Source: a virus
Taxonomy: Duplodnaviria; Heunggongvirae; Uroviricota; Caudoviricetes
DNA: 9,150 bases
Reading direction: 5' to 3' (one strand)
IMG/VR virus record: IMGVR_UViG_2541047807_000006
Position 1 is the stretch's first letter. Every line of letters begins with the position of its first letter. Both the position numbers and the translations under genes were made by a program. Below, in pieces: positions 8,381 to 9,150 of the stretch. The notes beneath the pieces are model-generated. The model was not told where the DNA came from. It saw only the letters and a list, made by a program, of their open reading frames with translations, and did no database searches.

Positions 8381-8866
8381 ATGGATCGAGAACTGAAAAA
8401 TCTGATGCTGAACATTAATCAACTGGCGGCGATAGCGGGAATATGTCGTCAGACTGCGGCGGCAAGGCTGAAAAACATCCAGCCAGCCGGAGGGCATGAC
8501 AAGCTGAAACTCTATCGGGTGACTGACATTCTGACCTGTTTTCTTGATCTTCCCGTTCCGGCATCACTGGAAGAAATGGAGCCACATGACCGTAAGGCCT
8601 GGTATCAGTCCGAACGTGAGCGCCTCAAGTTCGAACAGGAAACGGCGCAACTCATACCCGCCGATGATGTGCGAAAAGAGATGGCTATATGGGGGGAAAT
8701 CGTAAGCGAGGAACTGGCAAAACTCCCCAATATTCTGGCACGTGATGCCGGGCTTAAACCGATGGCAGTAAACAGAGTGCAGTCAATTATTGACGATTTG
8801 TGTAATCAGATTATCAGCCGGATGGTAAAAAATGACGTAGTGAATGAGGTCGCAAAACAGGCATGA
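8381..8866 (+). CDS. Terminase small subunit, lambda Nu1-like (N-terminal winged HTH), about 161 aa
   Basis: Start trimmed to the ATG at 8381, preceded by GGAGCGGG; the 29 codons upstream in the track ORF cross an AT-rich promoter-like region. N-terminus LNINQLAAIAGICRQTAAARLKNIQPAGG...LKLYRVTDI parallels lambda Nu1 (KKQLADIFGASIRTIQNWQEQGMPV..GGG...VLYDSAAVI, from memory). Confidence 0.75.
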   Translation: MDRELKNLMLNINQLAAIAGICRQTAAARLKNIQPAGGHDKLKLYRVTDILTCFLDLPVPASLEEMEPHDRKAWYQSERERLKFEQETAQLIPADDVRKEMAIWGEIVSEELAKLPNILARDAGLKPMAVNRVQSIIDDLCNQIISRMVKNDVVNEVAKQA

Positions 8867-9150
8867 TAATGACTGAATCTGAAATACTGCGATTAATCCG
8901 CCGTGCTGGTGGAATCAGCCAGCTGGCTGACGAACAGGCCAAGCAGCCGGATACCGTCACCGCTGAAAATTACGCGCGTGTGGTGGCTGATGTGATGCGC
9001 CGTGACGGTATTGAGCTTAACGGCGTGGATATGCGCAACATACGAACCAGAGTTCTTGAGTTGCTGGCATACCGTCGCCGTTCTCAACAACGGAGGGAGA
9101 GCGCGAAAAATACTTACCAGTGGAAGAAGCCGAAACGGTTGCGGCGGTAG
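8863..9150 (+). CDS. Hypothetical protein, 95 aa, with a strongly basic C-terminal tail; translationally coupled to the small terminase gene
   Basis: Its ATG (8863-8865) overlaps the terS stop TGA (8864-8866). The C-terminus RRRSQQRRESAKNTYQWKKPKRLRR is highly basic. No HNH or terminase-large motifs. Confidence 0.55.
   Translation: MIMTESEILRLIRRAGGISQLADEQAKQPDTVTAENYARVVADVMRRDGIELNGVDMRNIRTRVLELLAYRRRSQQRRESAKNTYQWKKPKRLRR

What the first reader, a model, noticed from the sequence alone, without database searches (positions are those of the whole stretch)
8381..9150. Nu1-like small terminase coupled to a 95-aa basic protein rather than directly to a large terminase
In lambda, Nu1 is followed immediately by the large terminase gene A. 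Here the terS stop overlaps the start of a 95-aa protein with a strongly basic tail and no HNH or ATPase motifs. It may be a packaging specificity or adaptor factor that lets this TerS work with a helper large terminase, by analogy with helper-redirecting proteins in PICIs, or a DNA-binding packaging accessory.
Basis: inference. Interest (0 to 1): 0.45.

Follow-up and report, generated by a model that had tools for sequence, protein, structure and literature searches.

The report
Conserved last gene of PICI satellites
The small basic ORF after the small-terminase gene is real, but it is the conserved, still uncharacterised last gene of E. coli phage satellites (PICIs), and it sits next to whichever packaging gene a satellite carries, so it is not a private partner of this terminase.

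Summary
A small-terminase homologue (8381-8866) is followed at once by a small ORF with a very basic tail, and no large terminase follows.

The window is a roughly 10-kb E. coli PICI-type phage satellite. In its closest relatives the small ORF is the last gene before the chromosome. The TerS belongs to DUF1441/phrog_141, not to Pfam Phage_Nu1. It is chimeric. The cos site, cosB and the first ~87 codons are ~99% identical in DNA to resident lambdoid prophages. The last third is satellite-specific and lacks the acidic C-terminal tail of the phage copies.

The small ORF most likely starts at 8869 (93 aa; phrog_1561). It is under purifying selection, occurs in 1574 of 5426 complete E. coli genomes, and is absent from 50,697 phage records.

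It also follows lambda-Nu1-type TerS, RppA in EcCICFT073, the TerL of capsid-forming PICIs, or no TerS at all. Its alleles track neither that neighbour nor the integrase. A TerS-specific adaptor role is therefore unlikely.

My best guess, with low confidence, is a satellite-specific accessory of the packaging operon that binds nucleic acid or acts on a shared target. I found no paper that characterises it.

The parts
1..1239 (+). Tyrosine integrase of the satellite. It is 77-78% identical to the integrase of the EcCICFT073-type islands at the roxA-phoQ site.
   Evidence: Pfam Phage_integrase and Arm-DNA-bind_3; BLASTP against the island integrases.
1659..1868 (+). AlpA-family regulator/excisionase, a PICI hallmark.
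   Evidence: PF05930, 2.9e-16.
3391..5223 (+). D5-type primase/helicase (PICI pri-rep), preceded by a DUF4222 gene at 3110-3409.
   Evidence: Pfam D5_N, DUF5906 and Pox_D5; phrog_864.
5222..5440 (.). Cluster of direct and inverted GGTGAACAGTT-type repeats just after the primase gene. Probably the origin of replication.
   Evidence: the repeat finder families D3, D5 and I1-I6. Gram-negative PICI origins lie just 3' of the replication gene (PMC6092414).
5599..5692 (+). cos-like copy 1. It has the cosQ/cosN-like core (GGGTCCTCCCGGTG...ACG|GGGCGGGAGCG) but lacks the cosB-side homology.
   Evidence: 94-nt direct repeat, 93% identical to 8134-8227. The alignment diverges about 45 nt after cosN.
6005..6211 (+). 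68-aa gene (phrog_4934) abutting the capsid gene.
   Evidence: A 207-nt gene is annotated in the same position in other PICIs.
6211..8124 (+). ClpP-like prohead protease / major capsid protein fusion. It is 57% identical to that of mEp460-type phages.
   Evidence: Pfam CLP_protease and Phage_capsid_4; NF045540, 2.9e-270; tblastn against L002 and L004.
8134..8227 (+). cos copy 2: a terminator hairpin at 8132-8147, then the cosQ/cosN-like core. The predicted cosN starts at about 8184 (GGGCGGGAGCGG).
   Evidence: The same core lies just upstream of terS in mEp460-type phages and prophages. The record of phage mEp460_4F5 starts 4 nt before this GGGCGG. It parallels the lambda-type cos upstream of terS in the CFT073 prophage and the cos sites flanking rppA in EcCICFT073 (PMC6092414).
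8161..8640 (+). Block 98-100% identical in DNA to resident prophages (L030). It covers cosN, the cosB region and the first ~87 codons of terS.
   Evidence: Sliding identity against L030; alignment A4; prophage context of P0173.
8381..8866 (+). Small-terminase homologue, DUF1441 family, 161 aa. It has an N-terminal winged helix-turn-helix (residues ~9-55).
   Evidence: PF07278, 1.3e-35; phrog_141, 6.7e-57. It is 65-71% identical to phage TerS. AF2 pLDDT 79.7. The best fold matches are MerR-type wHTH proteins.
8680..8866 (+). Satellite-specific C-terminal third of TerS. It ends ...ISRMVKNDVVNEVAKQA and lacks the acidic tail (...EAGADDEEELQQEE) of the phage copies.
   Evidence: Alignment A3. Contexts were checked for the window, L001, L033 and L034 (satellite) and for L002, L004 and L030-L032 (phage).
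8869..9150 (+). orf93 (95 aa if read from the ATG at 8863). It belongs to phrog_1561 and is the conserved last gene of E. coli PICIs. The model has three helices (3-13, 28-45, 52-80).
   Evidence: phrog_1561, 1.1e-51; 744 homologue clusters; AF2 pLDDT 77.5; dN/dS 0.13-0.46; contexts.
9064..9147 (+). Basic C-terminal tail of orf93 (residues 66-93, net charge about +11). It ends in the nearly invariant motif Y-x-W-K-K-P-E-R-L-R-R; this copy has K for the E.
   Evidence: Alignments A1 and A2; charge calculation.

Best explanation
SHOWN. The window is an E. coli PICI-type phage satellite. It carries an integrase, alpA, a primase with an origin, a protease-capsid fusion, two cos-like sites and a TerS homologue. 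orf93 is the last gene.

No large terminase follows because the island ends there. The satellite must therefore borrow TerL, portal and tails from a lambdoid helper of the mEp460 type (DUF1441 TerS plus GpA-family TerL).

The cos site, the cosB region and the DNA-binding half of TerS are about 99% identical in DNA to resident prophages. The satellite thus presents its likely helper's own packaging signal and recognition domain. The C-terminal third of TerS is a satellite-specific version without the acidic tail found on every phage copy I aligned.

orf93 is not tied to this TerS. It is a satellite-only gene family and the conserved terminal gene of the packaging operon in several PICI lineages. 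It usually starts within 2-13 nt of the stop of whichever packaging gene the island carries: DUF1441 TerS, Nu1-type TerS or cf-PICI TerL. After RppA, and after some Nu1-type TerS genes, it lies 73-314 nt downstream. In the three such islands I examined in detail (gaps of 256-279 nt) an inverted cos site occupies that gap.

INFERRED (low confidence). orf93 is a small helical protein that uses its Arg/Lys-rich tail and its invariant Y-x-W-KKPERLRR end to act on something common to all these systems. The target could be the DNA or RNA being packaged or expressed, or a conserved host or helper component. It acts as an accessory that helps satellite DNA maturation or packaging, not as a bridge between one particular TerS and TerL.
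For: Satellite identity and gene order.

Phage relatives have terS overlapping terL.

cos identity.

Chimeric TerS: 98-100% identity over 8161-8640, then about 50-65%; tail present on phage-type copies, absent from satellite-type copies. The satellite-type C-terminus stays with orf93 when the cos site and DNA-binding half are swapped.

orf93 is a real gene.

orf93 is satellite-only: no tblastn match in 50,697 phage records.

Upstream neighbour in 80 IMG/VR loci:
- DUF1441 TerS: 27, all with a 2-nt gap.
- Nu1-type TerS: 34.
- cf-PICI TerL: 10, with a 13-nt gap.
- RppA: 4.
- No recognisable packaging gene: 5, including one island with capsid fusion, cos and orf93 but no TerS.

The same pattern holds in complete genomes: EcCICFT073, Nissle and O157 islands, an EcCIEDL933-like cf-PICI and ST131 cf-PICIs with an ATGA overlap to TerL. 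At least 534 genomes carry TerL+orf93, against at least 192 with DUF1441+orf93.

The tail alleles are independent of neighbour and integrase.
Against: - No DNA- or RNA-binding fold, and no family of any kind, was recognised (Pfam, NCBIfam, PDB sequence search, Foldseek PDB and BFVD).
- The Arg-rich part of the tail is much less basic in the second allele (AYNRRVELYREKEKITYHWKK...), so only the last ~11 residues are truly conserved. That fits a peptide docking motif as well as it fits nucleic-acid binding.
- In some islands a 73-314-nt gap separates orf93 from the packaging gene, so co-translation is not universal.
- For EcCICFT073, only c1503 (rppA) among the cloned post-ori genes blocked lambda (PMC6739421). 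I found no experiment on the orf93 position in the papers I could read.
- Position in an operon is weak evidence of function.
Confidence: 0.35

Rival explanations
1. orf93 is a dedicated adaptor that links this satellite's TerS, whose C-terminus has lost the phage-type acidic tail, to the helper's large terminase.
For: - The satellite-type TerS C-terminus lacks the acidic tail that all aligned phage-type copies carry.
- In lambda, the C-terminal ~40 residues of Nu1 bind gpA (my own knowledge).
- The satellite-type C-terminal third and orf93 stay together while the cos site and the DNA-binding half are exchanged with prophages.
- There is a 2-nt gap in 27 of 27 such loci.
Against: - The same gene follows Nu1-type TerS, RppA and the TerL of capsid-forming PICIs, which have their own complete terminase. 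It also occurs in islands with no TerS.
- An identical TerS C-terminus is paired with both tail alleles of orf93.
- Physical adjacency alone explains the co-inheritance.
Confidence: 0.12
2. orf93 is not a packaging protein. It is a regulator, or a right-end function, carried by all these islands. In the excised circle it lies upstream of attP and int, so it could control integration or late transcription, or modulate the host.
For: - It is kept even when the whole packaging cassette differs or lacks a TerS.
- Its alleles are independent of the packaging gene.
- It borders the variable right-end region, which cf-PICI authors expect to hold immune systems (10.1101/2025.02.11.637232).
- A recurring YTGATATTYYCG motif with small hairpins starts 5 nt after its stop codon in most relatives.
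Against: - Its alleles do not track the integrase type either.
- It overlaps, or nearly abuts, terminase genes in most loci, which argues for co-expression with packaging functions.
- No helix-turn-helix or other regulator fold was detected.
Confidence: 0.25
3. orf93 is an interference factor. Its basic tail mimics the basic N-terminus of the helper's TerL and captures the acidic tail of the helper's TerS. This lowers helper packaging, and the tail-less satellite TerS is immune.
For: - Charges are complementary: the orf93 tail is about +11, and the last 17 residues of the phage TerS are about -7.
- The satellite TerS lacks that tail.
- The mEp460 TerL N-terminus is Arg-rich.
- There is a precedent for satellites that target helper TerS: Rpp (PMC6739421).
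Against: - Of the EcCICFT073 genes cloned from the post-ori region, only c1503 reduced lambda plaques (PMC6739421).
- The cf-PICI EcCIEDL933 is reported not to interfere with its helper (10.1101/2022.09.08.507074), yet an island of the same type and site carries orf93.
- This is purely electrostatic reasoning with no structural support.
Confidence: 0.1
4. orf93 is a non-functional or spurious ORF, conserved only as a recombination linker at the end of the islands.
For: No detectable family, fold or motif. Partial duplications of its 3' end occur downstream in some islands.
Against: - dN/dS is 0.13-0.46 across 41-99% identical copies, including a 41-46% identical homologue that keeps the same length and the same C-terminal motif.
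- The frame is intact in 1514 genomes.
- The helical core of the model is confident (pLDDT 87-92 over residues 31-70).
Confidence: 0.03

Closest known systems
The unnamed 93-aa gene just after rppA (c1503) in EcCICFT073, and the last gene of an EcCIEDL933-like cf-PICI (phrog_1561)
   Same: Same protein family: 73% identity to the CFT073 copy and 73-83% to the cf-PICI copies. Same length, same terminal position and same C-terminal motif.
   Different: Here it directly follows a DUF1441-type TerS. In EcCICFT073 it lies 279 nt after rppA, beyond an inverted cos site. In cf-PICIs it follows TerL. None of the copies has a described function in the papers I could read.
Rpp proteins (RppA/RppC) of E. 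coli PICIs
   Same: The TerS homologue here occupies the same slot as Rpp (cos, then DNA-recognition protein, then orf93). Like Rpp it has a MerR-type winged-helix N-terminus (PMC6739421).
   Different: There is no sequence similarity to RppA or RppC. Rpp carries a different DNA specificity and works by binding lambda TerS. The protein here is a true TerS homologue whose DNA-binding half is identical to that of resident prophages. Whether it forms mixed complexes with helper TerS is unknown.
Small terminase of mEp460-type lambdoid phages and prophages (DUF1441 family), and by position lambda Nu1
   Same: 65-71% identity to the phage proteins; the first ~95 residues are identical to one prophage group. 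It lies just downstream of cos.
   Different: In phages the gene overlaps terL and ends in an acidic tail. Here there is no terL and no acidic tail, and orf93 takes the downstream place. It does not hit the Pfam Phage_Nu1 family.
Satellite-encoded TerS of pac-type SaPIs, and the TerS-encoding E. coli PICIs noted by Fillol-Salom et al. 2018
   Same: A satellite carries its own small-terminase homologue and relies on the helper's TerL (PMC6092414).
   Different: SaPI TerS redirects packaging to a different pac site. Here the cos/cosB region and the DNA-binding domain match the putative helper, so discrimination by DNA sequence is not evident.

Membership tests
Gram-negative PICI (EcCICFT073-like phage satellite) | Integrase, then alpA, then replication gene (primase) with an adjacent origin, all in one direction. 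About 10 kb, with no lysis or tail genes. | tested here: met
   The gene order is colinear with the CFT073, Nissle and O157 islands.
Gram-negative PICI (EcCICFT073-like phage satellite) | A dedicated chromosomal attachment site with flanking repeats. | not testable with these tools
   The window starts at the int start codon and ends at the orf93 stop codon. Relatives sit at tRNA-Ile/mug, roxA-phoQ, clpS, smrA and tRNA-Pro.
Gram-negative PICI (EcCICFT073-like phage satellite) | Induction and high-frequency transfer by a helper phage. | not testable with these tools
   This needs an experiment. The candidate helpers are prophages with identical cos and TerS N-terminus.
Capsid-forming PICI (cf-PICI) | Own capsid, protease, portal, head-tail connectors, HNH, TerS and TerL. 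| tested here: not met
   Only a protease-capsid fusion and a TerS homologue are present. Compare the full module in L029.
Lambda Nu1 family (Pfam PF07471 Phage_Nu1) | Sequence match to the family profile. | tested here: not met
   Only PF07278 DUF1441 is hit. Nu1-type TerS genes of other PICIs do carry PF07471.
Lambda Nu1 family (Pfam PF07471 Phage_Nu1) | N-terminal MerR-type winged helix-turn-helix that reads cosB. | tested here: inconclusive
   The AF2 model shows strand, helix-turn-helix, beta-hairpin wing and helix over residues 9-55. The best Foldseek matches are MerR-type proteins (MtaN, BldC, RacA; probability up to 0.97, but E=0.1-0.5). 1J9I is not among the top 50.
Lambda Nu1 family (Pfam PF07471 Phage_Nu1) | Gene lies immediately downstream of cos and is followed by the large terminase gene. 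| tested here: not met
   cos lies upstream, but orf93 follows and then the island ends.
DUF1441 / phrog_141 small terminase | Profile match over the full length, and phage members placed between cos and a GpA-type TerL. | tested here: met
   PF07278 covers 1-145 of 147 profile positions; phrog_141, 6.7e-57. Phage contexts. The acidic C-terminal tail of the phage members is absent.
Rpp (redirecting phage packaging) proteins | Sequence homology to RppA, RppB or RppC. | tested here: not met
   Neither ORF hits 6HLK or 6HN7, whereas CFT073 RppA hits 6HLK at 5e-31. BLASTP of TerS against RppA gives E=9.
Rpp (redirecting phage packaging) proteins | Binds helper TerS and switches cos specificity. 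| not testable with these tools
   No complex prediction or binding assay was available.
phrog_1561 (orf93 family, function unknown) | Full-length profile match, about 93 aa, with C-terminal Y-x-W-KKPERLRR. | tested here: met
   1.1e-51 over profile positions 1-93 of 93; motif in alignments A1 and A2.
Large terminase / HNH endonuclease (as a fragment) | Similarity of orf93 to TerL or to an HNH domain. | tested here: not met
   BLASTP against mEp460 TerL gives E=13. There are no Pfam hits even at E<=10.

The most novel reading that the evidence does not exclude
orf93 is a universal, satellite-only packaging factor. Through its invariant C-terminal peptide it docks onto a component shared by very different terminase systems (lambda-type, mEp460-type and HK97/HNH-type), for example the terminase-portal interface or a host factor. 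This gives satellite DNA an advantage, or makes the tail-less satellite TerS competent. It would be a second, general hijacking device alongside Rpp, present in nearly a third of E. coli genomes.
Probability: 0.15. Interest if true: 0.65.

Novelty: new member of a known kind. Interest (0 to 1): 0.4.

Why it matters
PICIs move virulence and defence genes between enterobacteria, and the way they capture helper packaging machinery is an active question.

This work shows that the small basic ORF is not a quirk of one island. It is a satellite-specific core gene found in 29% of complete E. coli genomes, including the model islands EcCICFT073 and an EcCIEDL933-like cf-PICI. I found no function assigned to it in the papers I could read.

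It also shows a clean modular design in this lineage. The cos site and the TerS DNA-binding half are copied from the likely helper. They are joined to a satellite-specific TerS C-terminus without the acidic tail.

Both points give directly testable hypotheses about how cos-type satellites couple to a borrowed large terminase. If orf93 turns out to be dispensable, the result is still useful, because it removes a tempting 'adaptor' story.

Tried and rejected
- orf93 as the N-terminal fragment of TerL: no similarity.
- orf93 as a gpW-like head-tail joining protein, the gene that follows terL in mEp460-type phages: hhalign probability 0.5%, and the model is all-helical.
- orf93 or the TerS as an Rpp homologue: no similarity.
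- Ankyrin-like repeat. There were weak DARPin hits (E about 0.4) and multi-stretch hits to three long repeat proteins. Those proteins turned out to be SEA-domain or other repeat proteins, so the hits are noise.
- A lambda-N-like arginine-rich RNA-binding motif in the tail (comparison from my own knowledge). The Arg-rich stretch is not conserved in the second allele.
- Family and fold searches for orf93 (Pfam to E=10, NCBIfam, PDB sequences, Foldseek PDB and BFVD): nothing significant.
- Co-variation of orf93 alleles with the upstream packaging gene or with the integrase: none.
- Linking orf93 to the EcCIEDL933 'hypothetical gene 1792', whose mutation reduced transfer. The capsid is gene 1786 (10.1101/2025.02.11.637232). 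By my gene count on an island of the same type, 1792 is the 60-aa ORF between HNH and terS, and orf93 would be 1795. This count is an inference.
- The marked island 'EcCICFT073 c1504-c1507::cat', which transfers well (PMC10460865). The notation does not say whether the orf93 position is deleted or the marker merely sits beside it, so it is not usable as evidence.
- A complex prediction of TerS with orf93 was not possible with the tools.
- Rfam found nothing in the window.
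Full report
**What is in the window.**
The 9150 bases read as one co-oriented element:
- a tyrosine integrase (1-1239);
- AlpA (1659-1868);
- a DUF4222 gene and a D5-type primase (3110-5223);
- a repeat-rich stretch that fits a PICI origin (5222-5440);
- a 68-aa gene (6005-6211);
- a ClpP-like protease/major-capsid fusion (6211-8124);
- a DUF1441 small-terminase homologue (8381-8866);
- the small ORF of the finding.

There are no lysis, tail, portal or large-terminase genes. This is the gene set and order of the Gram-negative phage-inducible chromosomal islands described by Fillol-Salom et al. (PMC6092414). It is colinear with the islands of CFT073, Nissle 1917 and O157:H7 that I retrieved.

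**Checking the observation.**
The two ORFs are there, and the TGA of the first overlaps the ATG at 8863. Most of the 744 homologue clusters are 93 aa. RefSeq annotates the gene from the second ATG, and the conserved N-terminus is M-[TS]-E. The start is therefore most likely 8869, 2 nt after the stop.

The last 28 residues carry 12 K+R against 1 D+E. No HNH, ATPase or any other Pfam or NCBIfam family is hit.

The TerS is 'Nu1-like' only in position and in fold class. It hits DUF1441 and phrog_141, not Phage_Nu1. Its model has an N-terminal winged helix-turn-helix whose best structural neighbours are MerR-type domains, with weak statistics.

**What lies beyond 9150.**
In E. coli HS13-1, which is 99.3% identical over 8100-9150, the small gene is the last annotated gene of the island. 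About 1.1 kb without annotated genes follows, then tRNA-Ile and mug. Many IMG/VR contigs of this element type end at the stop codon of the small gene or within about 1.3 kb after it.

In the related phages and prophages (mEp460, vB_EcoS-606R10, L030-L032) the DUF1441 terS overlaps a GpA-family terL. A 70-aa gene and the portal gene follow. So the absence of terL is genuine and reflects satellite biology, not a truncated phage.

**The packaging signal and a chimeric TerS.**
A 94-nt direct repeat (5599-5692 and 8134-8227, 93% identical) carries the core GGGTCCTCCCGGTG...ACG|GGGCGGGAGCGG. The same core lies just upstream of terS in mEp460-type phages, and one phage record begins 4 nt before the GGGCGG. 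From my own knowledge of the lambda sequence, it parallels the lambda cos core. That core lies upstream of terS in the CFT073 prophage and twice in EcCICFT073, which matches the two functional cos sites reported for that island (PMC6092414).

From 8161 to about 8640 the window is 98-100% identical in DNA to prophage L030. This block covers cosN, the cosB region and the first ~87 codons of terS. Identity then falls to about 50-65% for the rest of terS and disappears after its stop.

At the protein level, satellite-type copies share a distinct C-terminal ~60 residues ending ...ISRMVKNDVVNEVAKQA. Every phage-type copy I aligned ends in an acidic run such as ...EAGADDEEELQQEE. I verified the contexts for four satellite loci and five phage or prophage loci. 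A second satellite (L033) has a different N-terminal half and a different cosB, but the same C-terminal third and the same orf93.

By analogy with lambda, where the Nu1 C-terminus binds gpA (my own knowledge), the satellite TerS differs from the helper's TerS precisely in the part expected to couple to TerL. Its DNA recognition, by contrast, is copied from the helper.

**The small ORF is a conserved satellite gene.**
- It matches phrog_1561 end to end (1.1e-51).
- It occurs in 1574 of 5426 complete E. coli genomes, with up to six copies per genome.
- It is found in Shigella, E. albertii and Salmonella.
- It has only a handful of divergent relatives (39 representatives at 50% clustering).
- It has no tblastn match in 50,697 phage records.
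- Pairwise dN/dS is 0.13-0.46.
- A 41-46% identical homologue keeps the length and the C-terminal Y-x-W-KKPERLRR.

The AF2 model has three helices and a confident helix-loop-helix core (pLDDT 77.5). It has no significant neighbour in the PDB or in BFVD.

**The decisive context result.**
The upstream neighbour of orf93 varies.
- In CFT073 the 144-aa gene before it is RppA (it hits RppC 6HLK at 5e-31). The orf93 homologue, 73% identical, lies 279 nt further on, beyond an inverted lambda-type cos.
- In Nissle and O157:H7 islands the neighbour is a lambda-Nu1-type TerS.
- In helper-embedded PICIs a Phage_Nu1 TerS is followed by orf93 after 11 nt.
- In ST131 and in an EcCIEDL933-like island it follows the TerL of a complete capsid-forming PICI module, overlapping it or 13 nt away.

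In 80 IMG/VR loci the neighbour was DUF1441 TerS in 27, Nu1-type TerS in 34, cf-PICI TerL in 10, RppA in 4, and none recognisable in 5. The last group includes one island with capsid fusion, cos and orf93 but no TerS, and one with an IS insertion. At least 534 complete genomes carry TerL+orf93, against at least 192 with the arrangement of this window.

The tail comes in two main alleles (...RRRSQQRRESAKNTYQW... and ...NRRVELYREKEKITYHW...). Both occur with several neighbour types and with unrelated integrases, and an identical TerS C-terminus is found with both.

**Interpretation.**
A protein that serves as a private bridge between one TerS and the helper TerL should not be kept next to Rpp, next to a satellite's own TerL, or in islands without a TerS. 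It should also co-vary with its partner. It does neither.

What all these islands share is that orf93 closes the packaging operon and is usually tightly coupled to the terminase or recognition gene. I therefore favour, at low confidence, a satellite-specific accessory. It would act on a shared target: nucleic acid through the basic tail, or a conserved host or helper component through the invariant C-terminal peptide.

Three rivals remain:
- a non-packaging regulator or right-end function;
- a TerS-specific adaptor, helped by the missing acidic tail and by the co-inheritance of the TerS C-terminus with orf93;
- an electrostatic decoy against the helper TerS tail.

None can be settled without experiments or complex modelling.

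**Literature.**
The Rpp paper reports that, among the EcCICFT073 genes cloned from the post-ori region, only c1503 blocked lambda (PMC6739421). The cf-PICI paper mutated the packaging-module genes of EcCIEDL933 (10.1101/2022.09.08.507074). Its 'hypothetical gene 1792' is, by my count from the capsid gene 1786 (10.1101/2025.02.11.637232), the 60-aa ORF between HNH and terS, not orf93. A marked island named 'c1504-c1507::cat' transfers efficiently (PMC10460865), but the notation does not reveal whether the orf93 position is intact. I found no paper in the held library that names or tests this gene.

**Verdict.**
- The element is a new member of a known kind, a TerS-encoding cos-type PICI.
- The useful leads are the unstudied but very common orf93 family and the helper-matched, tail-less chimeric TerS.

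Noticed in passing
window 5599-5692 and 8134-8227: Two cos-like cores lie in direct orientation, 2535 nt apart, bracketing the capsid gene. Only the second is followed by the cosB-side sequence shared with phages. If both were cut, a genome lacking the capsid segment would be packaged. How the element avoids this, or what copy 1 is for, is unexplained. A mEp460-type copy also sits upstream of the equivalent 68-aa gene in the Nissle island, whose terS uses lambda-type cos (L007, position 8615).
   Followed up: partly
L010 15556(+) and 16312(-); L007 11054(+) and 11938(-); L008 13055(+) and 13939(-): In EcCICFT073 and in the Nu1-type TerS islands of Nissle and O157:H7, two lambda-type cos cores lie in inverted orientation, flanking rppA or terS. 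The inverted copy fills the 256-279-nt gap before orf93. The inverted orientation of the two published EcCICFT073 cos sites is not mentioned in the passages I read.
   Followed up: partly
L001 13052-14150; L007, L008, L010, L021 and L029 just after orf93: In most relatives, a motif YTGATATTYYCG starts 5 nt after the orf93 stop. It recurs up to four times in the next few hundred bases, each time near a small perfect hairpin (for example GCGCAAAATTGCGC or GTTGCAGATCTGCAAC). In L029 the last bases of orf93 plus this motif are partly duplicated about 95 nt downstream. These could be protein-binding sites, terminators or recombination scars at a cargo hotspot.
   Followed up: partly
window 6005-6211: A 68-aa gene (phrog_4934) abuts the start of the capsid gene. 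A 207-nt gene is annotated in the same position in EcCICFT073, Nissle and O157 islands. By eye its sequence looks like a ribbon-helix-helix protein (short strand, then two helices). I did not test this.
   Followed up: no
window 5222-5440: A dense set of direct and inverted repeats of GGTGAACAGTT-like units lies immediately after the primase gene. It is probably the replication origin.
   Followed up: no
window 1-1239 versus L001 2994-4421: The element is mosaic. The window's integrase is 77-78% identical to the integrases of the islands at the roxA-phoQ site (the EcCICFT073 island and an EcCIEDL933-like cf-PICI). Its closest relative for the packaging end (HS13-1, 99%) has an unrelated integrase (22% identity) and sits at tRNA-Ile.
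   Followed up: partly
L069 3854-6282 (IMG/VR contig): This island has a protease-capsid fusion, a cos-like region and orf93 but no TerS or Rpp gene. orf93 is thus retained when the recognition protein is absent.
   Followed up: partly
window 1879-2790: The 303-aa plus-strand ORF here is probably spurious. The region holds a minus-strand gene of the YlcI/YnfO type (2214-2561, phrog_949). In relatives it also holds a short Icd-like gene on the plus strand.
   Followed up: no
L006 9875-10159 (Cedecea davisae): A distant relative of orf93 (33% identity over residues 39-92) lies in a different element that carries a DUF927/Toprim primase. It sits downstream of a 584-aa SLT-domain protein, separated by an opposite-strand ORF. 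The family therefore reaches beyond E. coli-type PICIs in another context.
   Followed up: no
L035 (IMGVR_UViG_2684622670_000016, 9981 nt): This viral-contig record is 99.65% identical to the last 6282 bases of the window. It also ends exactly at the orf93 stop codon. Predicted element boundaries cut at gene ends probably explain why the window stops there.
   Followed up: yes
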